32,264 bases of DNA from Candidatus Mesolinea sp. UBA5823 (GCA_002417685.1 DICP01000018.1:11057-43320), one strand, 5' to 3'. Positions 1,972 to 26,248 are shown, counted from the first letter of the stretch. The notes: generated by a model not told the origin, from the sequence alone. Made by a program: numbers and translations.

Positions 1972-4451
1972 TGTTAACCAACCTAAGAGATTATTTTGCA
2001 ATCAAGCATAGCGGTTTGTTTGATGAGAAATATTACCTTCTTCATAACCCAGATGTCCGCCGTGGAGATATCGACCCACTGACGCATTTTGTAAAATATG
2101 GTTGGAAAGAAGGGCGAAATCCGTCAGAAAATTTTGAAATCCAACATTATTTACAATCCAAACCAGAGCTGCTTTCAGCCAATGTGAACCCTCTGCTGGA
2201 TTATCTCCGGTCAGGCACGAGAGCAGAAACCCAACCAAGTTCTCCTTCCAGAGCAGCTGCAGAATTGACTCAATCCAAACGACTCCAACGCAAGATTAGG
2301 AATGGATGGAAGGTCCTCCAATATTACGGCTTATCTGAAATCTTTAAGCGCCTCCAAGCAAAGATATTCGGAACGAAGAAAATGACGCAGGGCAACCAAA
2401 ACACTTTCAACCTGCTGGATCCTCTCAATGTGTTAACGCTTGACCGCCAGCAGTTCGCTCCAAAAGTATCGGTAATTGTCCCCAATTACAACCACGAAGC
2501 TTATCTCCGGCAACGCTTAGATTCGATTTATGGGCAAACCTATCAGAATATCGAAGTGATCCTGCTGGATGACTGTTCCATCGATGGCAGCCCAGCAATC
2601 CTCAAAGCTTACCAGGAAAAATATCCGCAAATCACACGCTGCGATTTCAATGCAGCTAACACAGGCAGTCCCTTTGCTCAGTGGAAAAAGGGTATTGCCT
2701 TAGCGACGGGTGATCTGGTGTGGATTGCTGAGAGCGATGACTTTTGTGAACCAGATTTCCTGGAAAAATTGGTGCTCTTTTTTACTGATGAATCGATTTT
2801 GCTTAGCTACGCCAATACGGTGTTCGTGGATGATGCGGGCAAGCGGCACCCCTTTGCCTTCGATACGTATGTTGCGCAGATTGACCCGCAGCACTGGCAA
2901 GCTTCTTACATCGAAACCGCCCATAATGAAGTCAATCGAGCTCTGGGCTTGCTCAACACCATCCCTAACGTAAGCAGTGTTCTTTTTCGCCGGCCGGAAA
3001 GCCGCGTGCCCCTTTTTGAGGACCCTGAATGGCCAGCGATGAAGGTTTGTGGTGATTGGGTTTTCTATCTGCACCTCTTACGTGGTGGAAGGTTGGCTTT
3101 TTGCCGAGATACGACGAGTTATTTTCGTATTCACGAAACAGGCACATCCAAGATTGCCCAAATCCAGGAATACTACTACCGCGAGCATAAAGTCGTGGCA
3201 CAAACGGTAGCCAGGCTCTATAAGGTACCTGATGAACTGCTTCGAAGGCTTGAGCTGCGCCTGAGGCAATACTATTTGGAAAATATGCCTAATAGCAGCG
3301 TGGATAAGTTTCAGGAGTTATTCGACCTTGACCGCGTATTGGCTTGCAAACAGGAGCGGCTGCCCAATGTCATGATTGCAACGTACGCCTTTTCTTATGG
3401 GGGCGGGGAGATCTTTCCGATCCGCCTGGCGAACGCCTTAGCTGAAAATGGCACTGCAGTGACGATTTACAATGGCAACCAGGAACCTACTGACCCAGGT
3501 GTGCGGGGGATGTTGCACCCACAGATTGCGGTGTTCAACCATTCCCCTAACCTCAACGTGCCTTTGGTGCTAAAGGAAATGGGCATCGAAGTTGTGCATA
3601 CACACCACGCTTCCATGGAAAACCTTTTCGGGGTTTGGAAACTATCTTATCCTTCACTGAAAATCAAGCACATCGCCACTATGCACGGCATGTACGAGAT
3701 GATGGGTGAAGATTTCCTCGCAAACACGAAAAACATCCTCGCTGCGGTAGATAATTGGGTTTATCTAACGGAAAAAAACCTGGAACCCTTCAAGCAGCAC
3801 GGATTTTATTCTGAAGATAAATTCAGCCATATTGATAATGGGATGCCTGTACCGAATATAAAAGAAATAGATTTAAGCCCCTATCGCATCAATAAAGATT
3901 CTTTCACGATGTGTCTAGTAAGCCGGGCATTACCAGAAAAAGGGTGGAAGGAAGCCGCCCTGGCAGTGAGCACCGCCCGCAAACGTACCAACAAAGACCT
4001 TCATTTGCTATTGATAGGCGAAGGTGTTGTCTATAACATTCTAAGGCGGGATTCGTTGCCAGATTATGTGCACCTTTTAGGTTTCCGGAAAAATGTGGAC
4101 GATTTCCTGGCTGTCTCACAGTTAGTGCTGATACCCTCCTATTTTAAGGGGGAGAGCTTCCCCTTAGTCTTGATTCAATCTTTCATGGTGGAAGTGCCGG
4201 TGATTGCCACGCGAATTGGGGAAATAGAAAGGATGATGACACTAGATAGCCAGCACAAAGGGGGTATCCTCATTGATTTAAAAGATGGGAAAGTGGATCC
4301 AGATGACCTTACCGAAGCCATCATAAAAATGGTGACCGATCAGAATTTTTATAATGAATGTAAAAGTTCTGTGCGGCTTCTAAAAGAGCGGTTTGATATA
4401 AACAACGTGGCGAAAAACTATTTAGCACTTTATAAGAATGCATTGGAATAA
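1971..4451 (+). CDS. Three-module glycosyltransferase: conserved N-terminal module, GT2 domain and GT4/GT-B domain
   Basis: 826-aa ORF. The N-terminus has FDEKYYLLHNPDVRRGDIDPLTHFVKYGWKEGRNP, a motif I recall from large polysaccharide GTs. The GT2 signature is VSVIVPNYNHEAYLRQRLDSIYGQTYQNIEVILLDDCSIDGS...WIAESDD. The C-terminal GT-B signature is ...GESFPLVLIQSFMVEVPVIATRIGEI.... TAATG junction with the upstream gene. Confidence 0.88.
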   Translation: MLTNLRDYFAIKHSGLFDEKYYLLHNPDVRRGDIDPLTHFVKYGWKEGRNPSENFEIQHYLQSKPELLSANVNPLLDYLRSGTRAETQPSSPSRAAAELTQSKRLQRKIRNGWKVLQYYGLSEIFKRLQAKIFGTKKMTQGNQNTFNLLDPLNVLTLDRQQFAPKVSVIVPNYNHEAYLRQRLDSIYGQTYQNIEVILLDDCSIDGSPAILKAYQEKYPQITRCDFNAANTGSPFAQWKKGIALATGDLVWIAESDDFCEPDFLEKLVLFFTDESILLSYANTVFVDDAGKRHPFAFDTYVAQIDPQHWQASYIETAHNEVNRALGLLNTIPNVSSVLFRRPESRVPLFEDPEWPAMKVCGDWVFYLHLLRGGRLAFCRDTTSYFRIHETGTSKIAQIQEYYYREHKVVAQTVARLYKVPDELLRRLELRLRQYYLENMPNSSVDKFQELFDLDRVLACKQERLPNVMIATYAFSYGGGEIFPIRLANALAENGTAVTIYNGNQEPTDPGVRGMLHPQIAVFNHSPNLNVPLVLKEMGIEVVHTHHASMENLFGVWKLSYPSLKIKHIATMHGMYEMMGEDFLANTKNILAAVDNWVYLTEKNLEPFKQHGFYSEDKFSHIDNGMPVPNIKEIDLSPYRINKDSFTMCLVSRALPEKGWKEAALAVSTARKRTNKDLHLLLIGEGVVYNILRRDSLPDYVHLLGFRKNVDDFLAVSQLVLIPSYFKGESFPLVLIQSFMVEVPVIATRIGEIERMMTLDSQHKGGILIDLKDGKVDPDDLTEAIIKMVTDQNFYNECKSSVRLLKERFDINNVAKNYLALYKNALE

Positions 4452-6122: not shown

Positions 6123-6653
6123 ATGAAAAAAATTAAAAACCCCGCTTACTGGTTAATCACAATTTTATTGCTTCTGCTTTTTGTCTTTGCGAATGACATT
6201 GCCTTAGCCATACCTTTAAAAGAAACATATCAATTAAAGAAAATTGAGCTAAATAAATACAATGAATTTGCAAAAAACTTTGACTTAAAAATCGAGTCTA
6301 TTTATACAAAACAAGACATATTTATTACGACTGAAATTAGTGGGTATGCCCTAATTCAGCCTGATCAGGCTAGTCCTAATAAGGCCATAAAACTGGTATT
6401 CTCTTCAGATGACAAACGCTACGAAGTTGATGCGTCCATAATTGATAGATTTAATCTAAACTCCTTATATCGTAATAAAGGTATTGTCGGTATCAATCAT
6501 GGCTTCATTACGCGATTTTCGCCATTAAAAATGGAAAACGGAGTCTATAAACTGTATATTTATTGTTATGAAAACGAAAACACAATTGGGTTCATGGATA
6601 CAAATCGATATTTCGAGAAGACCTATCGTACTTTCAAAGAGGTGAAGAAATAA
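6123..6653 (+). CDS. Small signal-anchored or secreted protein of unknown function
   Basis: 176-aa ORF starting 18 nt after the previous stop. The N-terminus is MKKIKNPAYWLITILLLLLFVFANDIALA (signal or anchor). It shares the AT-rich composition of the upstream gene. I recognise no family. Confidence 0.65.
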   Translation: MKKIKNPAYWLITILLLLLFVFANDIALAIPLKETYQLKKIELNKYNEFAKNFDLKIESIYTKQDIFITTEISGYALIQPDQASPNKAIKLVFSSDDKRYEVDASIIDRFNLNSLYRNKGIVGINHGFITRFSPLKMENGVYKLYIYCYENENTIGFMDTNRYFEKTYRTFKEVKK

Positions 6654-6745: not shown

Positions 6746-6785
6746 GTCAGTTAATAAAACTGAATCCGGATGAGAATAGGGTTAG

Positions 6786-9849: not shown

Positions 9850-10325
9850 GCATTGCCTACCTAGGGCTTGGAACTAATCTGGGCGACCGTAAACAAAACA
9901 TTAGCAAAGCCATTGAAGCAATCTCGCTGAAAATGAGTATCTTTAAGCAATCTTCACTCTACGAAACAACAGCCTGGGGGTACACAAACCAACCCGACTT
10001 TCTCAACCAGGTGATTCAGGTTGAGACTAATTTAAGCCCGCTCCGCTTATTGAATTTCCTCAAGAAAACTGAGGTAGAGCTGGGACGAGTCGAAAACTTT
10101 CGCTATGGACCCCGCCTGATCGACATCGACATCCTTTTTTACGATGATTTGATAAAAACTACAAGTCGCCTAGAAATCCCTCACCCAAAAATCCCAGAAA
10201 GGGCTTTTGTTTTAGCGCCTCTAAATGAGATCGCGCCTGGATACGTTCACCCAGTTTTGAAGAAAACGATAGCAGAACTGTTGGCAGAGCTTCCGAATAA
10301 GACTGGAGTATGGCTATGCGAGTAG
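9846..10325 (+). CDS. folK: 2-amino-4-hydroxy-6-hydroxymethyldihydropteridine pyrophosphokinase (HPPK)
   Basis: IAYLGLGTNLGDR, SSLYETTAWGY..QPDFLNQV, RYGPRLIDIDILFYDD and HPKIPERAFVLAPLNEIAP are classic HPPK blocks. ATGA overlap with hom. Confidence 0.9.
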   Translation: MSIAYLGLGTNLGDRKQNISKAIEAISLKMSIFKQSSLYETTAWGYTNQPDFLNQVIQVETNLSPLRLLNFLKKTEVELGRVENFRYGPRLIDIDILFYDDLIKTTSRLEIPHPKIPERAFVLAPLNEIAPGYVHPVLKKTIAELLAELPNKTGVWLCE

Positions 10326-12176: not shown

Positions 12177-12206
12177 TTGACAAGACCTCACTGCCTGGTT
12201 GATAAT
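12177..12206 (+). promoter_or_regulatory. Sigma-70-like promoter of the sulfate-activation operon
   Basis: TTGACA at 12177-12182, an 18-nt spacer, GATAAT at 12201-12206 (or TGATAA with a 17-nt spacer). AGGAG at 12228-12232 and ATG at 12238. Confidence 0.5.
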
Positions 12207-12237
12207 AACTCAAATTTGGATAAGTCCAGGAGTAGGA

Positions 12238-12990
12238 ATGGATTTCAACTTAATTCTCGTGATCATTGTGGGTTTTATTGCCCAAATGATTGATGGCAGC
12301 TTAGGCATGGCTTATGGCGTGAGCGCCAATAGCTTTTTGCTCGGCGTAGGCTTGCCGCCAGCCATTGCCAGCGCCAGTGTCCATTCCGCGGAAATCGTTA
12401 CCACTGCTATTTCTGGCATTGCTCACTGGCATGAGGGGAATACCGATCGGCGCATGGTGCTCTCCTTGTTGATCCCTGGCGTCATTGGCGGCGCTTTAGG
12501 GGCTTATATTCTTACCAACATTGATGGCAATAAAATCAAACCCTATATCACTATTTACCTCTTGCTGATGGGAATCCGCATCTTGGTGAAAGCTTTCAAC
12601 GGTGCGCAGCTTTCTGAAGAAAAGCAAACCTCAAAATGGCTGATCCCCTTAGGTCTAGTCGGCGGCGTTTCAGATGCTATTGGTGGCGGGGGATGGGGGC
12701 CGATTGTCACCAGCACCCTTATTTCCAGCGGTCATGCACCCCGCAAAGCTATCGGTTCAGTCAATTTTGCTGAGTTTTTCGTGACCATTGCAGAAGTGAT
12801 TGTATTCATTACTTCGCTCTCATTTGTAGAAAACTGGCGTTACATTGTGGCCCTCTTGATTGGGGGCGTTATCGCTGCTCCCTTGGGTGCGCGTATCACT
12901 AGGAAAATCCCAGCTAAAACCCTGATGATTATGGTCGGCATCTTGATAATTGTCCTGCAGCTGCGCACGCTTTATCAGATTTACTTTTAA
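12238..12990 (+). CDS. TSUP/TauE-SafE family anion (sulfite/sulfonate/sulfate) permease
   Basis: MDFNLILVIIVGFIAQMIDGSLGMAYGV and the GGGGWGPIVTS Gly-rich motif. About 7-8 TM helices. I moved the start to ATG 12238 because it has an AGGAG RBS 5 nt upstream and because the listed TTG at 12199 lies inside the predicted promoter. Confidence 0.8.
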   Translation: MDFNLILVIIVGFIAQMIDGSLGMAYGVSANSFLLGVGLPPAIASASVHSAEIVTTAISGIAHWHEGNTDRRMVLSLLIPGVIGGALGAYILTNIDGNKIKPYITIYLLLMGIRILVKAFNGAQLSEEKQTSKWLIPLGLVGGVSDAIGGGGWGPIVTSTLISSGHAPRKAIGSVNFAEFFVTIAEVIVFITSLSFVENWRYIVALLIGGVIAAPLGARITRKIPAKTLMIMVGILIIVLQLRTLYQIYF

Positions 12991-12993
12991 GCA

Positions 12994-13590
12994 ATGGCAG
13001 AAAACCTTACTCCTTTTTCGCATCACATTCCCCTCGCAGTGCGCGAGCGGATCAACGGTCATAAAGCCTTAGTGCTTTGGTTCACTGGCCTTTCGGGCAG
13101 TGGTAAGAGCTCGATCGCTGGCGCATTGGAAAGCATACTCGTCGAGCGCTACCAGGCGCATACCTGCTTTTTGGATGGTGACAGCCTGCGCTCTGGGCTC
13201 AACCGTGACTTGGGATTTTCGGATGCCGACCGCACGGAAAATATCCGCCGGGTGGGTGAGGTGGCTCGCCTGATGTTCGAGGCTGGGTTGCTCACGCTGG
13301 TGGCGTTTATCAGTCCCTTTGCCCGTGATCGCGAGCGGGCACGTGCGCTCGTGCCGCCTGGGCGCTTTTGGGAGATTTATGTGGACTGCCCTATAGAGAT
13401 TTGCCAAAGGCGAGACCCAAAGCAGCTTTACCGGCGCGCAGGGCAAGGAGCAATTGCCGATTTCACAGGTATCAGCTCAGTTTATGAGCCGCCGCTGCAC
13501 CCCCAGCTTGTGCTGCACTCAGACCAATTTGGAATTGTTGAATGTGCCGAACAGGTCTTGGCACGCATGCTCGAAAACGGGGTATTATAG
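12994..13590 (+). CDS. cysC: Adenylylsulfate (APS) kinase
   Basis: The P-loop LWFTGLSGSGKSS, FLDGDSLRSGLNRDLGFSDADRTENIRRVGEVA and VAFISPF are all present and intact. It starts 3 nt after the permease stop. Confidence 0.93.
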   Translation: MAENLTPFSHHIPLAVRERINGHKALVLWFTGLSGSGKSSIAGALESILVERYQAHTCFLDGDSLRSGLNRDLGFSDADRTENIRRVGEVARLMFEAGLLTLVAFISPFARDRERARALVPPGRFWEIYVDCPIEICQRRDPKQLYRRAGQGAIADFTGISSVYEPPLHPQLVLHSDQFGIVECAEQVLARMLENGVL

Positions 13591-13607
13591 CTTTATGGCT
13601 GTAACTT

Positions 13608-14501
13608 TTGAGGAGTATTTTGGACCACTTACATGAACTAGAAAATCGTAGTGTCTACATTCTGCGGGAAGCTTACGCTAATATTAAATCTCTGGGAATG
13701 CTGTGGTCCATGGGTAAAGATAGCACCGTGCTGCTGTGGTTAGCCCGTAAAGCTTTTTTTGGACATATTCCTTTCCCGCTCATTCACATTGATACGCATT
13801 ATAAGATCCCGGAAATGATCCGCTACCGCGACCAAATGGTGCGCGAGCTACATCTAAACATGATCGTAGGCTCTAACTTAGAGGCGCTCGAGGCTAAAAA
13901 CACCTTTCCGGATGGCGCACTGGACCGTCTAAGCTGCTGTGCCACACTCAAGACGCAAGCGCTCAAGCAAACGCTCGACGGTACAGGTCCGCGGTTTCGC
14001 TTTAACCACGAAAAAGGAATCTATGAACGTGAAGAGCATCCCACACCCTTTACCGGTGTGATTGTGGGTGTGCGTGCCGATGAGGAGGGCTCGCGTTCTA
14101 AAGAACGTGTTTTTTCAGCTCGAGACGAGCAAAACGAGTGGAATGTTGCTAATCAGGCCCCCGAATTTTGGAACCAGTTCAAGACGGAATTTGCCCCGGG
14201 CACCACTGTGCGTGTGCACCCGCTGCTAGATTGGACTGAGCTGGATATTTGGGAGTACATCCGTGCAGAAAACATCCCTACGGTTTCGCTCTATTATAAT
14301 CACGGCGATGGCAAGCGCTACCGCTCCTTAGGTTGTTACCCTTGCACTTTTCCAGTCGAATCTGACGCGCGCAATGTGGATGAGATTATCGAAGAGCTAA
14401 GCGTGGGCAAGTTCGCCACCATCGCTGAGCGCTCCGGCCGGGCGCAGGATAAGGATGACGGCGGCTCGCTGGAGACCTTACGACGGGACGGATACATGTG
14501 A
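13608..14501 (+). CDS. cysD: Sulfate adenylyltransferase subunit 2
   Basis: [15 protein letters not shown] and the PP-loop [18 protein letters not shown]. Also [15 protein letters not shown] and [13 protein letters not shown]. The listed start is TTG 13608. An in-frame TTG at 13620, 4 nt after AGGAG (13611-13615), is an alternative. Confidence 0.92.
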
Positions 14502-16321
14502 TGACACAAACTCTACCCCAAGAAAGCATGAACATCGTCTTCGTAGGGCATGTAGACCATGGCAAGAGCACGATCGTGGGCCGCTTACTGGCTGATACCA
14601 ACTCGCTGCCCAAGGGCAAGTTGGAAGCGCTGCAAGCCGATTGCGCTCGCCGCGGAGTGCCCTTTGAGTATGCTTATCTCATCGATGCACTCAAAGATGA
14701 GCGCACACAAAATATCACCATTGATACCGCGCGCATATTCTTCAAATCCAAATTGCGCGAGTATCTCATCCTAGATGCGCCTGGGCATATTGAATTTATC
14801 AAGAATATGGTGACGGGAGCCTCCCACGCGGAAGCAGCGGTGCTGGTGATCGATGCACATGAAGGCGTGCAAGAAAACTCCCGCCGGCACGGTTACCTGC
14901 TGGGCATGCTGGGCATTAATCAGGTCGTGGTGGCGATCAATAAGATGGATCTGGTCGGTTATGACCAAGCCGTGTTTGAAGCCGTGAAGAAAGAATATAG
15001 CGCCTTTCTTCAGACTATCGGCATCACCCCTGCTGCTTATATCCCTCTGAGCGGGCGTGAGGGCGACGGCGTCGCTTCTCACAGCCCTGCTATGCCGTGG
15101 TATACGGGCAAGACGCTTCTGGAGGCATTGGATGCCTTTGAAAAGCACAAACCGCTGGTAGACCGCCCATTGCGCATGCCCGTGCAGGACGTGTACAAAT
15201 TCTCGGAGGATGGCGATCAGCGCCGTATTGTGGCTGGCACCCTCTCGAGCGGTACGATGCGCCCTGGGGATGCTTTGGTTGCTTACCCCTCGGGCAAACG
15301 CACCCATGTTGCAGAGCTGGTCACTTTTAACCAAAGTTCGCTCAGCCAAGCTGAAGCCGGCGAAGCCATTGGTTTCACCATGCAAGAACAAATTTACCTG
15401 AGGCGCGGGGAAGTTATTTGCCATCCGGATGAGCCTGCGCCTGAAGTGAGCACGCGCCTGCGTACGAGCCTTTTTTGGATTGGCGAGCAGCCGCTACAGA
15501 TGGGGAAAGACTACCTGCTCAAGGTGGGCACTGCCAAGGAAAATGTGCGCGTAGAGGCCATCCATCATGTGTTGGATGCTGCTACCTACGACCTGTTGGA
15601 AAGCTCGGACGAGGTCAGCCGGCACATGGCTGGGGAAGTCACCCTGAGGGCTCGGCACCCCATCGCCTTTGATGTGGGTACCCAGCTCCCCGAGACCAGC
15701 CGCTTTGTGTTGGTGGATGGCTATGAGATCGCTGGGGGCGGCAGGATCTTGGAAGCCCTGCCCGATGAAGACATGCACCTGCGGCAAGAAGTCTACCAAC
15801 GCGACCAAAAGTGGGTGCAAGGCATCCTCACTGCCGGCCAACGCGCCCAGCGCTTCAATCAGCAGCCTGCACTGATCATTATCACTGGTGAGAAAGGCAT
15901 GGGCCGCAAGCGCTTAGCTGCACACTTGGAGCAGCACCTGTTTACGGAAGGCAGTCTGGTTTATTATCTCGGCATCGGTTCAGTCATTCATGGCGTCAAC
16001 TTTGACCTGACAAACCGCTCCAAACCCGAGGAGTGGGCTGAACATGTGCGCCGTTTTGCCGAAGTCTGCCATTTGCTGCTTGACACCGGTCTAATTTTGA
16101 TTGTCACCGCCATTGAACTGACCAGCGCAGATGTGAAAATCCTAAAGACCATCATCAACACCGAAATTATCCAAACTATCTGGCTGGGAGATAAGATCAC
16201 CACGGACCTGGTTCCAGATATTCACCTTAGGCTGAACGAGGATGAAGAGACCCAGTTGGCGCGCATCAAAGCGGGCATCGAGGCGGCCGGCGTGGTCAAT
16301 GGAGCGCACGAAATCCCCTGA
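14498..16321 (+). CDS. cysN: Sulfate adenylyltransferase subunit 1 (GTPase) fused to a degenerate APS-kinase-like C-terminal domain
   Basis: G-motifs [13 protein letters not shown] and NKMD. The last ~160 aa align to the CysC of this window but read [13 protein letters not shown] and AIEL where CysC has GLSGSGKS, LDGD and ISPF. The start is GTG 14498 or ATG 14501; both overlap the cysD stop. Confidence 0.9.
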
Positions 16322-16519
16322 GCCCCTTTTTAAGGTGGGCTATATAAGGCTGAGGTACCTTTTTTTGGTATTTGGAGGTTAGTTACCTCTGCGGCAATCG
16401 ACATAATTGCGGTATGATAGGTGCAAGCCGAATAAGCGGCGCTTGGGAAATTTAGTTGCTAATTAATCGCTGAGCGCTCCCTTGCTTTGATATTTTTATA
16501 TGCCGACCTACAGGTATCG

Positions 16520-17641
16520 ATGATCGTCTGCTATTTTGGAACCTACCGCCAGAATTACTCCCGCAACAAGAATATGATTGCGGCTTTGCGCTCTGTGGGC
16601 GTCGAGGTTAAGGAGTGCCATGTGCCTCTCTGGCACGGCGTGGAGGATCGCGTCAAGGTTACCAGCGGTGGGTGGAAAAAACCGTCCTTCTGGTGGCGGG
16701 TAATCAAAACTTACTGGCAGCTTTATTGGAAATATACGCGCATTGGAGAATACGATATCTTGATGGTTGGTTACCCCGGTCAGTTCGATATCCTCCTCGC
16801 CAGGATGTTAGCTAATAGAATGCATAAACCTTTGGTCTGGGATGTGCTTATGTCTATCTATCTGGTAGCATTGGAGCGTCAGCTTGATCAAGTAGAAGGC
16901 TCTTCAATTAATTTCATCCGTAAAGCCGAAGCTAAGGCTCTAAAAAAGCCTGATATGCTTATTCAGGACACTCAATCCTACGTTGACTGGCTGTGTGAAA
17001 CGTATCAAATCTCCTCTGATAAATTTCGCCTCTTGCCTATTGGTGCTGATGATCGTATTTTCAAACCTCAACCAGAGGGAAACAATCCAGATGGGCTCTT
17101 CCGCGTGCTGTATTACGGTTCCTATATTCCCAACCACGGTGTCAGCGTCATCTTATGTGCGGCTGAGATTCTACGCGGCCATAGCGATATTCTATTCGTA
17201 ATGATCGGAGAAGGTCCCGAAAGGGCTGGTGCCGAACGCTTTGTGCAGCAAAAAGGCTTGACCAATATCCAGTTTCAAAGTTGGGTTCCACAGGATGAGC
17301 TGCCTAGCCGGATCGCGCAAGCCGATGTCTGCCTGGGTGCTTTTGGCCAAACGCCACAATCCCTCATGACGGTGCACAACAAAGTATATGAAGGCATGGC
17401 CATGGGCAAGCCGGTCATTACTGGCCAAAGCCCCGCGATTGCTGCCCAGTTTCACTCGGGCGAAGAGCTCTTGGCCTGCCCGCGAACACCGCAAGGGCTT
17501 GCTGAGAGCATCCTGCAGCTCAAAGAAGACCCAGCATTTCGGGCAAGATTGGGTGTCAATGCCTTGCACACTTTTCAGGAGCGTTATTCCCTGCAGAGCC
17601 TAGGGAAGCTCCTCTTAGGTTACCTCCATGAATTTGACTGA
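16520..17641 (+). CDS. GT4-family (GT-B) glycosyltransferase
   Basis: MIVCYFGTYRQNYSRNKNMIAAL... N-terminus and C-terminal ...VHNKVYEGMAMGKPVITGQSPA.... I prefer ATG 16520 over the listed TTG 16487. Confidence 0.8.
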   Translation: MIVCYFGTYRQNYSRNKNMIAALRSVGVEVKECHVPLWHGVEDRVKVTSGGWKKPSFWWRVIKTYWQLYWKYTRIGEYDILMVGYPGQFDILLARMLANRMHKPLVWDVLMSIYLVALERQLDQVEGSSINFIRKAEAKALKKPDMLIQDTQSYVDWLCETYQISSDKFRLLPIGADDRIFKPQPEGNNPDGLFRVLYYGSYIPNHGVSVILCAAEILRGHSDILFVMIGEGPERAGAERFVQQKGLTNIQFQSWVPQDELPSRIAQADVCLGAFGQTPQSLMTVHNKVYEGMAMGKPVITGQSPAIAAQFHSGEELLACPRTPQGLAESILQLKEDPAFRARLGVNALHTFQERYSLQSLGKLLLGYLHEFD

Positions 17642-18890
17642 TAAGCCGGTTTCAACACCCAAACGTAGCCGTTTTCTGAACATGTTAGCGGGCTACGGCA
17701 GCGCCAATGCCGCTGCTCAGTTCATGAAGATGCTCTTCATGCTCATCATGGCGCGCTACTTTGGGCTGGAAGATTATAGTGATTATGTTGCAGCCTATTC
17801 ATTAGCTTCTTTCACTGCCATTTTTTTCAACCTTGGTTTGGATACTTGGCTGCTGCGAGAGGGCTCATTCCAAGAGAATTGGAAGCTCTCGACGCAAAAG
17901 GTGCTTAGCTTGAAAGCGAGTATCGGTCTTATATGGGCAGGATTGTTGATCGGGTTAGCACCATCGCTACGCCCTGACCTATTTGGCTTTGGCCTCCTGG
18001 CGCTGTGTGTGGCGGATGTGTGGTTTGATTCCTTGCTAATAACCATGTTGGCTGTCCTTAATATTAAACGAGATATCAAAGCATACTCAGTTTCCATTTT
18101 GTTGCTACGCGGGTTAAAGCTAATTGTTTTGTTGGTTATGATTGCGGTGGGGAGCCGGTCTGTTATGCTGATTGCAGGTTTGAGGGCAGCTATTGCCGGC
18201 GGACTTGCTGTTGCTGTTTTTTTGATGCTCCGACTGGATTTTCGTTTTGCCAGGAGGCAAGAAAGCCTGCGTATGCTGCGCGATTCGAGAGCCTACACTT
18301 ACTCAGAGTTTTTTTCAGTAATCTATATGCAAGCCGATATTAATTTACTTACGATGCTACAAGGCAAGGTTATGGCTGGCATCTATTCCCCTGCTCTGAG
18401 TGTGATCAATGCTTTATTTATCATTCCCAGCTCAGTTTACACCTTTTCAATCCCCACTCTTTCGCGGACTTATCACGAAGCTCCGCAAAGGCTCCCCGCA
18501 GCAGCGCGTAAATTGCTGGCAGGGATTACCTTAATGGGAATAGTGCTTTTTGCGGGGGTCGGTTTGCTTGGGGATGACCTGGTACGGTTGCTGCTGGGTG
18601 CGGAATACGAGACCACCGGGCAGTTAATCACCATGCTCAGCCCAGTATTGCTGCTCAAGTGCTTGGAATTTGGGCTGGCAAGCGTGATTGTAGCGCTCAA
18701 TAAACAAAAAGACCGCATCTTCCCGCAAATGATTGCAGCGGCAATGAACGTGGGGCTCAACCTCTGGCTGATCCCTTTATATGGCGTGTTTGGAGCAGCC
18801 AGAGTGTATGTGATCAGCGAAGTTGTGCTCTTTTTGGGTTATGGGATAATTGTATTTAGGTCCATAAGGCAGCCAGAATATGCAGATTAA
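17628..18890 (+). CDS. Wzx-like polysaccharide flippase (MOP superfamily)
   Basis: 420 aa with ~12 TM helices. The layout and length are typical of Polysacc_synt/MOP flippases. It overlaps the upstream GT by 14 nt. Confidence 0.7.
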   Translation: MNLTDKPVSTPKRSRFLNMLAGYGSANAAAQFMKMLFMLIMARYFGLEDYSDYVAAYSLASFTAIFFNLGLDTWLLREGSFQENWKLSTQKVLSLKASIGLIWAGLLIGLAPSLRPDLFGFGLLALCVADVWFDSLLITMLAVLNIKRDIKAYSVSILLLRGLKLIVLLVMIAVGSRSVMLIAGLRAAIAGGLAVAVFLMLRLDFRFARRQESLRMLRDSRAYTYSEFFSVIYMQADINLLTMLQGKVMAGIYSPALSVINALFIIPSSVYTFSIPTLSRTYHEAPQRLPAAARKLLAGITLMGIVLFAGVGLLGDDLVRLLLGAEYETTGQLITMLSPVLLLKCLEFGLASVIVALNKQKDRIFPQMIAAAMNVGLNLWLIPLYGVFGAARVYVISEVVLFLGYGIIVFRSIRQPEYAD

Positions 18891-20184
18891 CTCCAAAAAC
18901 GGCTCGCCCGTTGTGTTGATTATCAATTTTCACTCCACCCGCAATGCGGGCGACCTGGCCTTGCTGCTTTCCAATCGTCAATTGCTGCAAGAAGCTTTCG
19001 ACAACCCCAGAATCATTGTCTCAGCAAACTGGCCTGATGAGGAAGCTTACGCAGAGTATGGCTTCGAAGTGGTGCCGTCGCCTTGGGCCCTTGCCGGGGT
19101 GCGGCCCGAAAACCCACTACCTAAGCAGGTTACGAATCTAATCGGTACCTACACTGCCCTTTGGCGGCATCGTCATCATCAAACGCCCCTCAAAGGCCAG
19201 CCGGATCTACCTTGGAAGCGCCTATATGCGGCTTATGCTGCTGCCGATGTGGTTGTGGGGGTCTCGGGTAATCAGTTTTACTCCAGCGGCAAGTATGGCT
19301 GGCCCTTCCCGGCCACCTATGCTTCGGTGAGCTTGGCGCATGCATTCCAGAAACCGCTCTATATACTGCCGCAATCGATTGGGCCGTTGCGCCGCCAGTG
19401 GGAACGCCGAATGCTGGCAAAAGGCTATGGACGAGCACGGCGCATTTATTTACGGGATAGTATCTCCTTACGATTAGCTGGTGAACTGGGTTTTCCAATG
19501 GAGAATGTGAGCTACGCGCCTGATCCAGCTTTTGACCTGGCACCGGCTGATCCTATGGAAGCAACCAATCTTTTGCAAGCTTGGGGTGCAGACATGACTA
19601 AGCCGAAGCTGGGCGTCACTGTTATTGCTCCGATGGGACGGTCATTTGTTACCGCTGAAGTAATGAATTATTACACCGTACTGGAGCGGACGCTCACACG
19701 TTTCTTACAATGCTATACAGCACAGGTGGTGCTCTTCAATCAGGTTTCGGGGCCAACACCCAACGAAAATGATGGCGAAGCTGCGGCTGCGCTCTGCTCC
19801 AGGCTAAAAGCCCAAAGCTTGGAGGCTGTGCACATCAACCAGGTGGTTAGACCAGCCCAGCTCAAAGCCAGCTATGGCTTGATGCAAGCTTTTTTAGCCT
19901 CGCGCTTGCACTCTGGCGTATTTGCGCTGGGCATGAACATCCCCACGGTTTTCATCGGCTATCTTTCCAAGACCCGCGGGATGTTACAGGCGTTAGAGCT
20001 GGAAAACAACGTGATTGACCTCAGGGATCTCAAGGAGCAGGATTTGTGGGAAAAGCTGAGCTACACTTGGGAGCATGCGACGCAAGAGCGAAGGGCTCTA
20101 GAAGTAAAGATGCCGGCAATTAAGGCTGCAAGTCACGCTCCCGCTCCATCCATACGAGAGGATTTTTTTCGTTACCATGGCTGA
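18880..20184 (+). CDS. Polysaccharide pyruvyl transferase family protein (CsaB/WcaK-like)
   Basis: N-terminal VLIINFHSTRNAGDLALLLS (N.GD motif) and C-terminal ...ASRLHSGVFALGMNIPTVFIGY..K. These match the family as I remember it. It overlaps the flippase gene by 11 nt. Confidence 0.7.
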   Translation: MQINSKNGSPVVLIINFHSTRNAGDLALLLSNRQLLQEAFDNPRIIVSANWPDEEAYAEYGFEVVPSPWALAGVRPENPLPKQVTNLIGTYTALWRHRHHQTPLKGQPDLPWKRLYAAYAAADVVVGVSGNQFYSSGKYGWPFPATYASVSLAHAFQKPLYILPQSIGPLRRQWERRMLAKGYGRARRIYLRDSISLRLAGELGFPMENVSYAPDPAFDLAPADPMEATNLLQAWGADMTKPKLGVTVIAPMGRSFVTAEVMNYYTVLERTLTRFLQCYTAQVVLFNQVSGPTPNENDGEAAAALCSRLKAQSLEAVHINQVVRPAQLKASYGLMQAFLASRLHSGVFALGMNIPTVFIGYLSKTRGMLQALELENNVIDLRDLKEQDLWEKLSYTWEHATQERRALEVKMPAIKAASHAPAPSIREDFFRYHG

Positions 20185-21340
20185 GATCCACATCTTGCAA
20201 TTGGTCAAGGGTTTAGATATTGGCGGGGTAAATGGCGGCGCTGAGCGTTTCTGTGTGGATCTTTCGCAGCAGCTCACTCAAATGGGATATCAAGCCACTA
20301 TTTGCGCGTTTTTCCGCATGCACACACCAGCAGAGGCTAAAACCCTGCAAGCGCTGGAAGCTACCAGTCTGAATGTTATCCAGCTGGCAGAATGGCGCGG
20401 TAACGGCGCGCTTTCTTCTTACCGCCAGGCATTGCATGGGCTAGAGAATTACGTTCAAAGCCACCCCGTTCAAATTGTACAAAGCCATTTTCAGTTAGGG
20501 ACCCTGGCAGCCTTGCGCCTAAAGCGTCAGCATCCCGGCTTGATTACCCTGCGCACGGTGCATAACGTGCGGGAGTGGGAGCAAACCCCAGCTGGCCGAT
20601 GGAAAGCCCATATCTTTACTGAAAGAGTTTTCCCTGCCCGGCTGGATGCCGAAGTTGGCGTCTCACAAGCCATCGTTGAGCAACTGGGGGCACATCCTGG
20701 AGCTAAGCAACACCCGGAAAAAACCCATCTGATCCCTAATGCCATCGACCTGCCCGAAAAACTGCCGGAGATAAAGCCGCCTAGGGCTGAAGGCCAAGGC
20801 TTTGTCATTGGCAGTGCAGGCCGCCTGGCTGAGCAAAAGGGTTATCGCTATTTAGTTGCGGCGATGCCGGAAGTACTCGAGGTAATCCCAGGTTGCGAGC
20901 TGCACTTGGCTGGCGATGGAAATCAAAAAGCAGAGCTTATTGCTCTGGCTCAGGAGTTGGAGGTGGCTGAGCATGTGAAGCTTAGGGGATATCTTGGGAA
21001 TATTCCCAATTTTTTGAATGAGTTAGATTTGTTTGTGTCCTCTTCTCTTTGGGAAGGCTTACCAACGGTTATCTTGGAGGCGATCGTGGCTGGAGTGCCT
21101 GTGTTAGCAACAGATATTGCCGGCAATCGCGAGCTTATCCAGGATAGAAGAACTGGCTGGCTGGTGCAGCCGGCTGATGCACACGCATTGGCGCGAGCCA
21201 TCGTACATGCATATCACCACCCTGAACTTCGTCAACAATTTGCGCGGGAGGCACGCCGCATCTTGCCTCAATTTTCCATTCAAACCGTGACGGAGCAATA
21301 TGCTCAGCTTTACCAACGTCTCTTGGCAGGTGCAGTATGA
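20177..21340 (+). CDS. GT4-family glycosyltransferase (paralogue A)
   Basis: ILQLVKGLDIGGVNGGAERF and the E-x7-E region SSLWEGLPTVILEAIVAGVPVLATDIAGNRELI. 8-nt overlap with the upstream gene. Confidence 0.88.
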   Translation: MAEIHILQLVKGLDIGGVNGGAERFCVDLSQQLTQMGYQATICAFFRMHTPAEAKTLQALEATSLNVIQLAEWRGNGALSSYRQALHGLENYVQSHPVQIVQSHFQLGTLAALRLKRQHPGLITLRTVHNVREWEQTPAGRWKAHIFTERVFPARLDAEVGVSQAIVEQLGAHPGAKQHPEKTHLIPNAIDLPEKLPEIKPPRAEGQGFVIGSAGRLAEQKGYRYLVAAMPEVLEVIPGCELHLAGDGNQKAELIALAQELEVAEHVKLRGYLGNIPNFLNELDLFVSSSLWEGLPTVILEAIVAGVPVLATDIAGNRELIQDRRTGWLVQPADAHALARAIVHAYHHPELRQQFAREARRILPQFSIQTVTEQYAQLYQRLLAGAV

Positions 21341-22476
21341 GTGAAACCCTGCATGTTTTGCAACTATTGAAGGGTTTGGATATCGGCGGCGCTAGCGGCG
21401 GCAGCGATAAGTATGGCTTCGAGCTGAGCTTAGCCTTGAAGAAAGCTGGCGTGCATGTGGCGGTGGGTTGTTTCAACCAATTTGGAACTGCCACGGAGCA
21501 GGATAATTTGGCTAAACTAAAAGCTGCCGGCATTCCCAATATTATCTTGGAAGAAGGAAGCACATTCTCTAAGCTGCATTCGCTTGATCTACAAAATTTC
21601 TGCCGTGATAATCAGATTGATATCGTCCACAGCCACTTCCCTGTAGGGAACCTGGCGGGCTCGCATCTTAGGGCGCAGAACGCAGTTAAAGCAGTGGTAC
21701 GAACAGCCCACATTTCTAAAGAATGGGGTGACGGGGTGATCGCCTGGGTCTGCCGGCAGGTCTTTTCGGGGTTCCTTTATCCCTTATTGACCGATCAGGT
21801 GGTGGGGGTTTCACAGGCGATTACTGACCAGCTCAACCACACACTTGGTGGAAGACTTTCCCACCACAAAGCGATAACCATCTATAATGGCATCCCGGAA
21901 CGATGGTTTACTCAGGGCAGCGCTCCGCTCCAGAAAGAGCTCCATTTGATTGGGGCGGCGGGGTTATTGATCGAACGTAAGGGTTTTGATCATCTAATTC
22001 GCGCCATGCCGGCAATTCTCACAGAATATAGTGATGCGCGCTTGATGATTTTAGGTGAGGGCCCGCAGCACGCAGTGCTAGAAGCTTTGATTGCTGAGCT
22101 GCATCTGGAGCAAAAAGTTAAATTGCTTGGAAATCAATCCGATCTGCCCAATTGGCTAAGCAGAATGGACATCTTCGTGTTGCCTTCTTGGGTGGAAGGT
22201 TTACCTACTGTTCTCCTGGAAAGCATGGCTTGCCAAACGCCTGTGATTGCGACGGACATCCCAGGGACCCGTGAACTTGTTCTGGATGGCCAGACCGGCT
22301 GGTTAGTTCAGCCCGGTTCGGTTGAGCAAATCTCCGAAGCAGTAAAGCGTGCTTTTTCACAACGCGAGGCGTATGTGTGCATCCAAGCGCAAGCCTATGC
22401 CTGGGCACAGAATTTTACGATTGAGCGTGCCGTGCAGCAATACTTAGCACTTTATCAACAGCTAGTTAAGGGTTAA
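21337..22476 (+). CDS. GT4-family glycosyltransferase (paralogue B)
   Basis: VLQLLKGLDIGGASGGSDKY and PSWVEGLPTVLLESMACQTPVIATDIPGTRELV. It is collinear with the preceding gene. ATGA overlap. Confidence 0.88.
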   Translation: MSETLHVLQLLKGLDIGGASGGSDKYGFELSLALKKAGVHVAVGCFNQFGTATEQDNLAKLKAAGIPNIILEEGSTFSKLHSLDLQNFCRDNQIDIVHSHFPVGNLAGSHLRAQNAVKAVVRTAHISKEWGDGVIAWVCRQVFSGFLYPLLTDQVVGVSQAITDQLNHTLGGRLSHHKAITIYNGIPERWFTQGSAPLQKELHLIGAAGLLIERKGFDHLIRAMPAILTEYSDARLMILGEGPQHAVLEALIAELHLEQKVKLLGNQSDLPNWLSRMDIFVLPSWVEGLPTVLLESMACQTPVIATDIPGTRELVLDGQTGWLVQPGSVEQISEAVKRAFSQREAYVCIQAQAYAWAQNFTIERAVQQYLALYQQLVKG

Positions 22477-25810: not shown

Positions 25811-26248
25811 TTAGTCATTGCCTTCATCGCCGTATACTTGGGGCTGATTTACCTCAATCACCTTCCCATGAATATCGATGGTAATTCTAAATCCCATCAT
25901 GCCCAAATACTGACGCGCTTCCTCAGGCAAACCTTTTTCTTGGATAGCCTTAAATTGCTCATCTTTTTTTTCTAATTGGCTGCGTAACATCGCCACAGTA
26001 AAAATATCTTCTTGACCCAGCATCTTAGCTGCCTGCTTGCTGAGGATATCTTCATGCCCGATGATTTGTGATGTTAAAGCTTCCCACACCTGCCAATCCA
26101 CATCTCCGGCGGGGATGTAGCGTAAAAATCCATCATCATTCAGAACATAACACGGCTCTGAACCAACATAAGCGACCTTTATAGGCTCGCCCTTAGGGTC
26201 GTAAACCAATCCTTCAAAAACAGCTTTTATCACAAACAGTCCTTCCAC
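25811..26248 (-). CDS. Hypothetical protein
   Basis: 145-aa ORF, co-directional and 45 nt upstream of the thioredoxin gene. The more likely start is GTG at 26233 (MIKAVFEGL...), preceded by GGAAGGA with a 6-nt spacer. I recognise no family. Confidence 0.6.
   Translation of the reverse strand: MEGLFVIKAVFEGLVYDPKGEPIKVAYVGSEPCYVLNDDGFLRYIPAGDVDWQVWEALTSQIIGHEDILSKQAAKMLGQEDIFTVAMLRSQLEKKDEQFKAIQEKGLPEEARQYLGMMGFRITIDIHGKVIEVNQPQVYGDEGND

What the first reader, a model, noticed from the sequence alone, without database searches (positions are those of the whole stretch)
12177..16321. PAPS-producing sulfate-activation operon inside a glycan-assembly locus, with no reductive-assimilation genes and no recognisable sulfotransferase
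Seen in the sequence:
- A TTGACA-N18-GATAAT promoter is followed by a TSUP/TauE permease, CysC, CysD and CysN.
- CysC has intact GLSGSGKS, LDGD and ISPF. CysD has the SMGKDS PP-loop. CysN has [13 protein letters not shown] and NKMD.
- The gene junctions are 3 nt, 17 nt and overlapping.

Established: CysDN makes APS and CysC makes PAPS.

Context:
- No cysH, sulfite reductase or cysteine synthase is visible.
- The operon sits between polytopic envelope proteins and, about 200 nt downstream, a GT/flippase/pyruvyltransferase operon.

Inference:
- PAPS is made here as the sulfuryl donor for a sulfated envelope glycan or glycolipid. The logic is the same as rhizobial NodPQ or mycobacterial sulfoglycolipid pathways.
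- I found no PKxGTT-type 5'-PSB motif in any ORF.
- The sulfotransferase is therefore either outside the window or an unrecognised family among the unassigned ORFs. Candidates are 6123..6653, the first ~165 aa of 1971..4451, and 25811..26248.
Basis: partly seen in the sequence, partly recalled or inferred. Interest (0 to 1): 0.72.

Follow-up and report, generated by a model that had tools for sequence, protein, structure and literature searches.

The report
PAPS-making sulfate operon in glycan locus
An anaerobic-digester bacterium (Candidatus Mesolinea, Anaerolineae) carries an intact four-gene unit that takes up sulfate and turns it into the sulfate donor PAPS, placed among cell-envelope sugar-polymer genes; it most likely feeds sulfation of a surface glycan, a known kind of arrangement, but the enzyme that would attach the sulfate is not nearby.

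Summary
A promoter at 12177-12206 is the only match of at least 11/12 in the window. It precedes tauE (TSUP permease), cysC, cysD and cysN, all with intact motifs and tight junctions.

Two corrections:
- cysD probably starts at TTG 13620, giving a 29-nt gap rather than 17.

No cysH, sulfite reductase, cysK or sulfotransferase lies in the window or in 10 kb either side. The three named sulfotransferase candidates are rejected.

The sulfation reading is partly supported:
- In 10 Anaerolineae loci with the same module, none sits beside reductive genes, and most sit beside polysaccharide genes.
- In one relative (CysN 64% identical) the module lies inside a same-strand operon with glycosyltransferases, a canonical sulfotransferase and a Wzx flippase.

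The acceptor and the sulfotransferase in this genome remain unidentified. Ordinary assimilation through a distant cysH is not excluded.

This is a new member of a known kind (NodPQ, RaxPQ, sulfated capsule clusters). Interest is moderate.

The parts
12177..12206 (+). Sigma-70-like promoter: TTGACA, 18 nt, GATAAT
   Evidence: It is an 11/12 match and the only one of that quality in the window. It lies in the 116-nt gap upstream of tauE, in the right orientation.
12238..12990 (+). TSUP/TauE-family permease (250 aa), inferred sulfate importer. The mechanical ORF starts at TTG 12199; the likely start is ATG 12238, after AGGAG at 12228-12232.
   Evidence: Pfam PF01925, 9.3e-44. Public gene calls give 250 aa. 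It is linked to cysC in nearly every Anaerolineae locus examined, and to cysNC in a Clostridia locus. The sulfate-uptake role is by analogy with Corynebacterium glutamicum CysZ (PMC1266029, PMC5840216).
12994..13590 (+). CysC, stand-alone APS kinase (198 aa), catalytically intact
   Evidence: PF01583, 3.5e-58. NCBIfam 242 > 163 and apsK 223 > 138.7. GLSGSGKS, LDGD and ISPF are present.
13608..14501 (+). CysD, ATP sulfurylase small subunit. The likely true start is TTG 13620 (293 aa).
   Evidence: NCBIfam NF003587, 351 > 195; the CysH models score far below their cut-offs. SMGKDS PP-loop. AGGAG ribosome-binding site at 13611-13615. 87% identical to the CysD of L008.
14498..15787 (+). CysN GTPase part (G domain plus two beta-barrel domains), translationally coupled to cysD (ATGTGATGA)
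   Evidence: TIGR02034, 359.5 > 336.1. PDB 1zun_B, 1e-80. Foldseek to 1zun_B, target-normalised TM-score 0.81. [13 protein letters not shown] and NKMD present. Start and stop overlap.
15788..16321 (+). C-terminal APS-kinase-like pseudo-enzyme domain of CysN. P-loop GEKGMGRKR in place of GLSGSGKS; LGIG in place of LDGD; AIELT in place of ISPF.
   Evidence: PF01583, 7.8e-11, partial. Best PDB match is Arabidopsis APS kinase 3uie, 6.7e-13, with the motifs aligned. The bifunctional CysNC model scores 449 < 715 and apsK 41 < 138.7. The replacement motifs are conserved in 120 homologues and in other phyla. The region is predicted to fold as alpha/beta.
16322..16519 (.). Spacer between cysN and the downstream GT operon, with no detected promoter or convincing terminator. 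Read-through is possible.
   Evidence: fold z-score -0.63. Public gene calls start the GT at 16520.
16487..22476 (+). Downstream glycan operon: GT4-type glycosyltransferase, Wzx flippase, CsaB/WcaK-like pyruvyl transferase, two GT4 glycosyltransferases. This is the likely assembly line of the envelope glycan, with no sulfotransferase in it.
   Evidence: Pfam, NCBIfam. The same layout appears in L027.

Best explanation
The unit is a self-contained 'sulfate in, PAPS out' supply module.

Steps:
1. Transcription starts at the 12177 promoter.
2. The TSUP permease imports sulfate. This step is inferred.
3. CysD with the CysN GTPase makes APS. This follows from family membership.
4. The stand-alone CysC phosphorylates APS to PAPS. 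This also follows from family membership.

The APS-kinase-like domain fused to CysN cannot be a kinase, because its catalytic motifs are lost. It is nevertheless conserved. It most likely acts as a docking or regulatory domain. APS kinases are dimers, so it may tether the real CysC to CysDN. Alternatively it may sense APS or PAPS, as the kinase-like domain of fungal ATP sulfurylase does. This is inference.

The PAPS is most likely used by a PAPS-dependent sulfotransferase encoded elsewhere in the genome. That enzyme would sulfate a cell-envelope glycan or glycoconjugate assembled by the surrounding GT/Wzx genes. This too is inferred, from the conserved genomic context in relatives.
For: - Gene identities and intact motifs.
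- Promoter and coupled junctions.
- No cysH, sir or cysK in the window plus 10 kb either side.
- Ten Anaerolineae loci carry the same module (CysN 57-99% identical). None has reductive genes nearby.
- Polysaccharide genes (Wzy, Wzz/BY-kinase, Bac_transf, UDP-glucose dehydrogenase, GTs, pyruvyl transferase, LCP) are adjacent in most of them. A CysQ-like PAP phosphatase is adjacent in four.
- L012 has GT2 - methyltransferase - GT4 - tauE - cysC - cysD - cysN - GT2 - methyltransferase - GT2 - Sulfotransfer_1/3 - Wzx on one strand with small gaps. That sulfotransferase has canonical GAAKSGTS and RNPVERAFS PAPS-binding motifs.
- Sulfotransferases of this type are common in Chloroflexota.
- The host is a strict-anaerobe digester lineage (PMC10937449). 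Sulfide is normally plentiful in such habitats (general knowledge, not tested here).
- Sulfated glycoconjugates are abundant in anaerobic granular sludge EPS (PMC10483923).
- The dead kinase domain correlates with a separate cysC. The one relative with an intact fused domain (L022) has no separate cysC within the ~21.6-kb locus examined.
Against: - No sulfotransferase of any Pfam family was found in about 52 kb. A clade-specific HMM run on all six frames also found none.
- Where the relative L012 has its sulfotransferase, this locus has a pyruvyl transferase. The local glycan may therefore be pyruvylated rather than sulfated.
- No CysQ is present here.
- Two relatives (L011, L026) have the module away from glycan genes.
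- CysDN plus CysC is also the standard PAPS route of assimilation. Chloroflexota cysN/cysC genes are usually read that way in the literature (10.1101/2021.01.05.425403).
- The rest of the genome could not be inspected.
Confidence: 0.6

Rival explanations
1. Ordinary assimilatory sulfate reduction. The module supplies PAPS to a PAPS reductase (CysH) and a sulfite reductase encoded elsewhere, and its position among glycan genes is incidental.
For: - CysDN plus CysC is the enterobacterial assimilation route.
- No sulfotransferase was found nearby.
- A cultured Chloroflexota strain is reported to have a full assimilatory set including cysH and sir.
- In L011 and L026 the module is not in a glycan locus.
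- A CysQ neighbour does not discriminate, because CysH also releases PAP.
Against: - None of the 10 Anaerolineae contexts, nor the flanks here, shows cysH, sir, cysK or cysE.
- The repeated linkage to Wzy/Wzz/GT/LCP genes, and once to a sulfotransferase, is hard to explain as chance.
- The organism lives in sulfide-rich anaerobic digesters, where reducing sulfate for biosynthesis is costly and unnecessary (inference).
Confidence: 0.2
2. The sulfotransferase is an unrecognised family encoded inside the window. A wider version would have the EptA/LtaS-like membrane protein 4653-6104 carry out sulfuryl transfer.
For: - Several ORFs have no Pfam or NCBIfam hit.
- 4653-6104 belongs to the alkaline-phosphatase/sulfatase superfamily.
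- In a Gemmatimonadota locus, two membrane-anchored proteins of the same superfamily flank the PAPS genes.
- Sludge studies note sulfated polymers without recognisable sulfotransferases (PMC10483923).
Against: - No unassigned ORF is a soluble cytoplasmic protein of sulfotransferase size.
- The three named candidates are shorter than 180 aa and score 0.07-0.7% in hhalign.
- 4653-6104 has five N-terminal TM-like segments and, by analogy with its EptA/LtaS-type structural matches, would place its catalytic domain outside the membrane, away from cytoplasmic PAPS. Those matches are phosphoethanolamine and glycerol-phosphate transferases.
- No unknown family is shared between this window and three other loci that carry the module, L008-L010.
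Confidence: 0.07
3. PAPS is made for a non-glycan acceptor, such as a lipid, a small metabolite or a secreted protein or peptide. This would resemble Xanthomonas RaxPQ/RaxST or gut-bacterial SULTs. The glycan genes would be neighbours only.
For: - Related cysD-cysN(C*)-cysC sets occur in gut Eubacterium MAGs. Eubacterium ramulus uses PAPS to sulfonate hydroxy fatty acids (PMC13449962).
- L011 places the module beside cohesin/cadherin surface proteins.
- A secreted beta-rich protein (23110-24507) follows the glycan operon here, and a similar one follows it in L012.
Against: The most frequent neighbours in Anaerolineae are polysaccharide assembly and export genes. The one linked sulfotransferase lies between a GT2 and a Wzx flippase.
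Confidence: 0.1

Closest known systems
Sulfated capsular polysaccharide clusters that carry a second cysNDC copy plus sulfotransferases (Vibrio sp. KMM 8419, PMC11641403; also Cobetia marina, PMC11766843)
   Same: PAPS-synthesis genes sit inside a polysaccharide biosynthesis locus, together with GTs and export genes. The authors call PAPS genes plus sulfotransferase genes in one cluster the hallmark of sulfated polysaccharide synthesis.
   Different: No sulfotransferase is present in this locus. Here the host is a Chloroflexota anaerobe, the pathway is of the Wzx type, a TSUP permease is part of the module, and CysN carries a dead kinase domain.
Rhizobial NodP/NodQ with NodH, and Xanthomonas RaxP/RaxQ with RaxST (from general knowledge; NodPQ is also summarised in PMC1780047)
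   Same: A dedicated CysD/CysN-type sulfate-activation set provides PAPS for sulfation of a secreted product rather than for cysteine synthesis.
   Different: The C-terminal APS kinase domain of NodQ and RaxQ is active and no separate CysC is needed. Here the fused domain is inactive by motif and a stand-alone CysC does the job. The partner sulfotransferase is adjacent in those systems and missing here.
Mycobacterium tuberculosis CysD/CysNC sulfate-activating complex (PDB 4bzp, 4rfv; PMC4373884)
   Same: CysD plus a CysN fused to an APS-kinase fold. The PAPS produced serves sulfolipid and glycolipid sulfotransferases.
   Different: The M. tuberculosis kinase domain is catalytically competent. 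The bifunctional NCBIfam model is not met here (449 < 715).
Fungal ATP sulfurylase with a C-terminal APS-kinase-like allosteric domain, and the inactive kinase-like domain of Thiobacillus denitrificans ATP sulfurylase (general knowledge; Gay et al. 2009, as cited in PMC11641403)
   Same: A non-catalytic APS-kinase-like domain is fused to the sulfate-activating enzyme, alongside a separate true APS kinase.
   Different: Those are Sat-type homo-oligomeric ATP sulfurylases, not the GTPase-coupled CysDN type. No function has been tested for the domain here.
Corynebacterium glutamicum fpr2-cysIXHDNYZ cluster, with its TSUP-family CysZ sulfate permease (PMC1266029, PMC5840216)
   Same: A TSUP/TauE-family permease is encoded together with cysDN and implicated in sulfate uptake.
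   Different: That cluster is reductive (cysH, cysI) and lacks cysC. This one has cysC and no reductive genes.

Membership tests
CysDN GTP-coupled ATP sulfurylase | CysD of the PP-loop ATP pyrophosphatase family, scoring above a curated CysD threshold | tested here: met
   NF003587, 351.5 > 195. SMGKDS present. The CysH models score far below their cut-offs.
CysDN GTP-coupled ATP sulfurylase | CysN of the EF-1alpha-like GTPase type with G1, G3 and G4 motifs, above the curated CysN threshold and adjacent to cysD | tested here: met
   TIGR02034, 359.5 > 336.1. [13 protein letters not shown] and NKMD present. The start overlaps the cysD stop. Foldseek to 1zun_B gives a target-normalised TM-score of 0.81.
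APS kinase (CysC) | Walker A GxxGxGKS, LDGD and ISP motifs, with a score above curated thresholds | tested here: met
   The stand-alone 198-aa protein scores 242 > 163 and 223 > 138.7, with all motifs present.
Bifunctional CysN/CysC (NodQ type) | The C-terminal domain is a catalytically competent APS kinase (intact P-loop and LDGD) | tested here: not met
   [13 protein letters not shown] and AIELT replace the catalytic motifs. NF004035 scores 449 < 715 and apsK 41 < 138.7.
TSUP / TauE-SafE permease | Polytopic membrane protein matching PF01925 above the gathering score | tested here: met
   150.3 bits > 32.6, covering residues 21-255 of the 263-aa ORF.
TSUP / TauE-SafE permease | Substrate is sulfate, transported inward | not testable with these tools
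   Inferred only from conserved linkage to cysC/cysDN and from C. glutamicum CysZ (PMC1266029).
PAPS-dependent sulfotransferase (Sulfotransfer_1/2/3/4/5, Stf0 and similar) | A protein with a 5'-PSB loop (PKxGTT-like) and a 3'-PB motif, matching a sulfotransferase profile | tested here: not met
   - Pfam at E<=10 on the unassigned ORFs: none.
- tblastn of the L012 sulfotransferase against the window: best E 0.36.
- Motif regex: no hit inside a gene frame.
- HMM of 120 Chloroflexota sulfotransferases against all six-frame ORFs: best E in the window 15.
- hhalign: below 1%.
Assimilatory sulfate-reduction gene cluster | cysH or APS reductase, sulfite reductase and cysteine synthase linked to cysDN | tested here: not met
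   None in the window or in 10 kb either side. The rest of the genome was not tested.
Sulfated-polysaccharide biosynthetic cluster (hallmark as defined in PMC11641403) | [quoted passage not shown] | tested here: not met
   PAPS genes, GTs and Wzx are present, but the sulfotransferase is absent here. The criterion is fully met in the related locus L012.
EptA/LtaS-like membrane-anchored alkaline-phosphatase-superfamily transferase (for 4653-6104) | N-terminal helical membrane domain plus an AP-superfamily catalytic domain with metal-binding D/E and DH motifs | tested here: met
   - AF2 model, mean pLDDT 90.
- Foldseek top hits are MCR-1, EptA, EptC and LtaS.
- D187, E188, H354, S411, D412 and H413 are invariant.
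- About half of the listed homologues carry PF00884.
- Five TM-like segments.
- The nucleophile residue and the donor substrate were not determined.

The most novel reading that the evidence does not exclude
Anaerolineae of anaerobic digesters use this conserved module (TSUP permease, CysC, CysD, and CysN with a pseudo-kinase domain) as the PAPS source for the sulfated extracellular glycoconjugates measured in granular sludge. In lineages like this one, which have no recognisable sulfotransferase near the module, the sulfuryl transfer is done by a family not yet recognised as a sulfotransferase. The conserved dead APS-kinase domain on CysN would then be a new regulatory or scaffolding element that channels APS to CysC or senses PAPS.
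Probability: 0.1. Interest if true: 0.7.

Novelty: new member of a known kind. Interest (0 to 1): 0.35.

Why it matters
- Sulfated glycoconjugates are chemically abundant in anaerobic and aerobic granular sludge. Their producers and enzymes are poorly known, and standard sulfotransferase searches find little in the dominant genera (PMC10483923).
- Anaerolineae are dominant digester filaments. If their PAPS module feeds envelope or EPS sulfation, it gives a genomic marker for likely producers. It would also correct the routine annotation of these genes as 'assimilatory sulfate reduction' and 'bifunctional CysN/CysC'.
- The pseudo-kinase domain fused to CysN is a neat case of a dead-enzyme domain retained beside its live paralogue.
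- None of this changes the basic biochemistry, which is textbook.

Tried and rejected
1. Census of neighbours in JGI metagenomes, using an alignment of the pseudo-kinase domain (A2). The context sample therefore stayed at 10 Anaerolineae loci plus 9 from other phyla.
2. The genome-contig scan with a single protein returned only 10 loci.
3. Exact look-up of CysC, to find strains where the module has different neighbours. Only the same layout came back.
4. Search for an unknown ORF family shared between the window and three other module loci (L008-L010). None was found apart from the module itself and a pyruvyl transferase.
5. The unknown ORFs of L009 and L013 were read as possible sulfotransferases. 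By eye they look like a GT-A-type enzyme, secreted proteins or polytopic membrane proteins.
6. 4653-6104 was considered as a possible novel sulfuryl transferase. Its fold is EptA/LtaS-like, a type whose catalytic domain lies outside the membrane, so it was rejected as a PAPS user.
7. Terminator after cysN: no convincing structure.
8. Literature search for a described CysN with an inactive kinase domain: nothing found.
9. Foldseek with full-length CysN returned only EF-1alpha/CysN matches, so it added nothing on the C-terminal domain.
10. Whole-genome content (cysH, sulfotransferases, cysQ, a second cysDNC) could not be examined with the tools and caps available.

Full report
**Origin.** The window is 99% identical to contig DMCS01000003.1 of 'Candidatus Mesolinea sp. 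UBA7927'. This is a mesophilic anaerobic-digester lineage of the Anaerolineaceae, phylum Chloroflexota (PMC10937449). Contigs carrying identical proteins from several metagenomes and MAGs extend the sequence 10 kb to each side.

**Observation.**
- The promoter TTGACA-N18-GATAAT at 12177-12206 is an 11/12 consensus match. It is the only match of that quality in the 32-kb window on either strand, and 0.19 are expected.
- It sits in the 116-nt gap before the operon, 32 nt upstream of the tauE ATG at 12238. That ATG follows an AGGAG ribosome-binding site.
- The four proteins pass curated thresholds:

| Protein | Model | Score vs cut-off |
|---|---|---|
| TauE | PF01925 | 150 bits vs 32.6 |
| CysC | NCBIfam APS kinase models | 242 > 163; 223 > 138.7 |
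| CysD | NF003587 | 351 > 195 |
| CysN | TIGR02034 | 359.5 > 336.1 |

- All quoted motifs are in the translations.
- Junctions: 3 nt between tauE and cysC. From cysC to cysD it is 17 nt to TTG 13608, but an AGGAG at 13611-13615 followed by TTG 13620, the homologue N-termini and public gene calls point to 13620, giving 29 nt. The cysD stop overlaps the cysN start in ATGTGATGA.

CysN is 607 aa, not about 430.
- Residues ~455-600 match the APS-kinase family (PF01583, 7.8e-11). The best solved relative is Arabidopsis APS kinase 3uie at 6.7e-13.
- The catalytic motifs are gone. The P-loop GLSGSGKS is [13 protein letters not shown] is LGIG, and ISPF is AIELT.
- The NCBIfam bifunctional CysNC model and the apsK domain model both fall far below their cut-offs (449 < 715; 41 < 138.7).
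- The replacement motifs are themselves conserved in 120 homologues (G-x-K-G-x-G-R-K-[RT], YLGIGS, A[VI]E[LF]T). The LGxG change is also found in related proteins from Thermotogaceae, Gemmatimonadota and gut Eubacterium MAGs. A separate intact cysC is visible wherever the contig extends far enough; the 3.3-kb Thermotogaceae contig L015 is too short to show one.
- One Clostridia relative (L022) has an intact fused kinase domain. It has no separate cysC within the ~21.6-kb locus examined.
- The domain is therefore a conserved pseudo-enzyme, and public labels such as 'bifunctional CysN/CysC' are wrong for this clade.
- AlphaFold models the region as a folded alpha/beta domain.
- An exhaustive search finds a modest family: 146 representative clusters at E<=1e-10, many of them fragments.
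- I found no paper describing a CysN-fused inactive kinase domain.

**Absence of reductive genes.**
- Pfam on all ORFs of 100 aa or more shows no CysH, sulfite reductase or cysteine synthase. The only PAPS_reduct-family protein is CysD.
- The left flank holds a peptide ABC transporter, an aminotransferase, a tRNA methyltransferase and rml genes.
- The right flank holds FTCD, dCTP deaminase, a cation ATPase, TrkA and GluRS. Neither flank has these genes either.

**Absence of a sulfotransferase.**
- Pfam at E<=10 on the unassigned ORFs gives nothing, and NCBIfam gives nothing.
- tblastn with the canonical sulfotransferase of a relative gives a best E of 0.36.
- A 5'-PSB regex over all six frames hits no real gene.
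- An HMM built from 120 Chloroflexota sulfotransferases was run without filters on every stop-to-stop ORF of 50 aa or more, in the window and in all 29 fetched loci. It finds only the L012 enzyme (1.5e-144). The best value in the window is E=15.
- All three are shorter than 180 aa, which is too short for the sulfotransferase fold. This size argument rests on general knowledge.
- 6123-6653 begins with a hydrophobic N-terminal segment, which suggests it is exported.
- The N-terminus of 1971-4451 reads as two copies of an FDxxxYLxxNPDV...PLxH(F/Y)xxxGxxEGRxP-type repeat (by eye).
- 25811-26248 lies in the stretch that stays 93-98% identical in a strain (L007) whose neighbouring surface-protein region differs.

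**Comparative context.** This is the main evidence on function. I obtained ten Anaerolineae loci with CysN 57-99% identical.

| Locus | Neighbours of the module |
|---|---|
| Window (L027 is the same layout) | Glycan genes on both sides |
| L008 | IclR regulator, module, LytR-CpsA-Psr ligase |
| L009, L024, L025 | Wzy, Wzz/BY-kinase, CysQ-like phosphatase, tauE, cysC, LCP, UDP-glucose dehydrogenase, cysD-cysN; plus (L009, L024) an ABC transporter, pyruvyl transferase and GT2 |
| L010 | Wzy, Wzz-kinase, CysQ-like, module, epimerase, UDP-glucose dehydrogenase, Bac_transf |
| L013 | Module, polytopic membrane proteins, DUF2142, Bac_transf, GT4 |
| L011 | Cohesin/cadherin surface proteins |
| L026 | dcw (cell division and wall) cluster |
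| L012 | See below |

- L012 is decisive for the family. On one strand, with gaps of 90 nt or less, it reads: GT2, methyltransferase, GT4, tauE, cysC, cysD, cysN, GT2, methyltransferase, GT2, a 305-aa Sulfotransfer_1/3 protein, Wzx flippase. A secreted beta-rich protein follows after a 130-nt gap.
- That sulfotransferase has textbook GAAKSGTS and RNPVERAFS motifs.
- None of the ten loci has cysH, sir or cysK nearby.
- Sulfotransferases of the L012 type are widespread in Chloroflexota.
- The window has the same overall architecture as L012: module, then GTs with Wzx and a modifying enzyme, then a secreted beta-rich protein. The difference is that a CsaB/WcaK-like pyruvyl transferase stands where L012 has methyltransferases and the sulfotransferase.

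**Interpretation.**
- The biochemistry up to PAPS follows from family membership.
- The permease as sulfate importer is inferred from its linkage to cysC in nearly every locus examined, and from the TSUP-family CysZ of C. glutamicum (PMC1266029, PMC5840216).
- The use of PAPS for sulfating an envelope glycoconjugate is inferred from context and habitat. I put it at about 0.6.
- The module is intact, and 86-99% identical variants of its CysN occur in other assemblies. This argues that something in the cell consumes PAPS.
- The glycan made by the adjacent operon may carry pyruvate rather than sulfate, and the sulfotransferase must be sought elsewhere in the genome.
- Assimilation through a distant cysH remains possible (about 0.2). 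A non-glycan acceptor gets about 0.1. An in-window novel sulfotransferase gets about 0.07.

**Transcription.** No sigma-70-like site and no convincing terminator lie between cysN and the GT operon. Co-transcription is possible but unproven.

**The largest unknown in the locus.** 4653-6104 was followed up because it is the only sizeable enzyme-like ORF without a family.
- About half of its listed homologues carry a weak Sulfatase (PF00884) hit.
- The AlphaFold model has a mean pLDDT of 90.
- Its best structural matches are full-length MCR-1 and EptA, EptC, LtaS and PbgA.
- It is therefore a membrane-anchored alkaline-phosphatase-superfamily transferase of a kind whose catalytic domain lies outside the membrane. 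It probably adds a phospho-substituent to the glycan and is not a PAPS user.

**Comparison with known systems.**
- The logic matches NodPQ/NodH, RaxPQ/RaxST, mycobacterial CysDNC with the Stf enzymes, and the sulfated capsule clusters of Vibrio and Cobetia that carry an extra cysNDC copy (PMC11641403).
- It fails the stated hallmark of those clusters because the sulfotransferase is missing locally.
- It fails membership of the bifunctional CysNC/NodQ type because the kinase domain is dead.
- The dead domain recalls the APS-kinase-like allosteric domain of fungal ATP sulfurylase, but on the unrelated CysN scaffold.

**Verdict.** This is a real and correctly described operon. It is an ordinary sulfate-activation pathway in an informative place, with a likely but unproven role in envelope sulfation. 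I classify it as a new member of a known kind, with one feature that seems undescribed: the conserved pseudo-kinase domain on CysN. Interest is 0.35.

Noticed in passing
window 4653-6104 (+): A 483-aa protein with no Pfam, NCBIfam or PDB sequence hit. It turns out to be an EptA/MCR-1/LtaS-like membrane-anchored alkaline-phosphatase-superfamily enzyme: five TM-like segments plus a catalytic domain, AF2 mean pLDDT 90. Invariant residues are D187, E188, Y189, H354, S411, D412, H413 and R416. Its family of ~480-aa proteins is essentially unannotated in public data.
   Followed up: yes
window ~4000-7000: GC drops to 35-36% against ~48-55% elsewhere. The stretch covers the AP-like gene, the small exported protein 6123-6653 and the start of the polytopic protein 6786-8216. 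It looks like a separately acquired or fast-evolving cassette within the glycan locus.
   Followed up: no
window 23110-24507 (+); L012:17032-18612; L007:18665-20059: A secreted, beta-rich ~465-526-aa protein with no family follows the glycan operon both here and in L012 (weak N-terminal similarity, pairwise E 2e-5). The copy in the closely related strain L007 is only 28% identical, although the flank up to 24932 is 93-98% identical. It may be a strain-variable surface protein, such as a glycosylation target or an S-layer-like protein.
   Followed up: partly
L017:10423-12456; L018:12442-13872 and 14718-16802: In gut Eubacterium MAGs the gene right after cysD-cysN(C*)-cysC is an arylsulfotransferase (ASST, PF05935) family protein. 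ASSTs are classically PAPS-independent, so their placement behind a PAPS-synthesis operon is odd.
   Followed up: partly
L016:2892-4745, 6678-7997, 9145-10887: A Gemmatimonadota locus has cysN, a CysQ-CysC fusion protein (Inositol_P plus APS_kinase, 439 aa) and cysD. Two membrane-anchored Sulfatase-family proteins flank them. These lack the C/SxPxR formylglycine motif and have PWTLPSHG, which I read as a Thr-nucleophile LtaS/EptA-type site.
   Followed up: partly
L022:9998-11845: A Clostridia relative has an intact CysN-CysC fusion (GLSGSGKST, LDGD, ISPF). No separate cysC was found in the ~21.6-kb locus, and tauE lies downstream. It is the natural comparison point for when the fused kinase domain died in the other lineages.
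   Followed up: partly
window 1971-2465 (N-terminus of the GT2-GT4 fusion protein): Two copies of a ~35-aa repeat (FDEKYYLLHNPDV...DPLTHFVKYGWKEGRNP / FEIQHYLQSKPEL...NPLLDYLRSG) precede the GT2 domain. No family hit and function unknown.
   Followed up: partly
window 571-1971 (+), residues ~340-466: This GT1-type glycosyltransferase ends in a long coiled-coil with repeated (L/I)KDE(Q/A)IQ(N/K)LS units and a basic tail. It recalls the coiled-coil chain-length rulers of ABC-transporter-dependent polysaccharide systems.
   Followed up: no
window 8806-10325 (+): Two housekeeping genes, homoserine dehydrogenase and HPPK (folK), sit between the two halves of the glycan region. They lie directly upstream of the DUF6541 polytopic protein and overlap it.
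   Followed up: no
window 8228-8521 (-): A 97-aa ORF made largely of Pro/Thr/Ser repeats followed by a hydrophobic segment and a basic tail, in an otherwise empty 590-nt gap. It could be a small anchored surface peptide or a chance ORF.
   Followed up: no
P0041 (CysN homologue) and P0337 (sulfotransferase homologue): Both list a longest contig of exactly 112,175 bp from the same sources. A second genome may therefore carry the module and a canonical sulfotransferase on one contig. The distance between them is unknown because the look-ups were exhausted.
   Followed up: no
window 31768-32145 (-): A transposase-type HTH (PF01527) ORF lies at the right edge of the window. It is conserved in all related contigs.
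   Followed up: no
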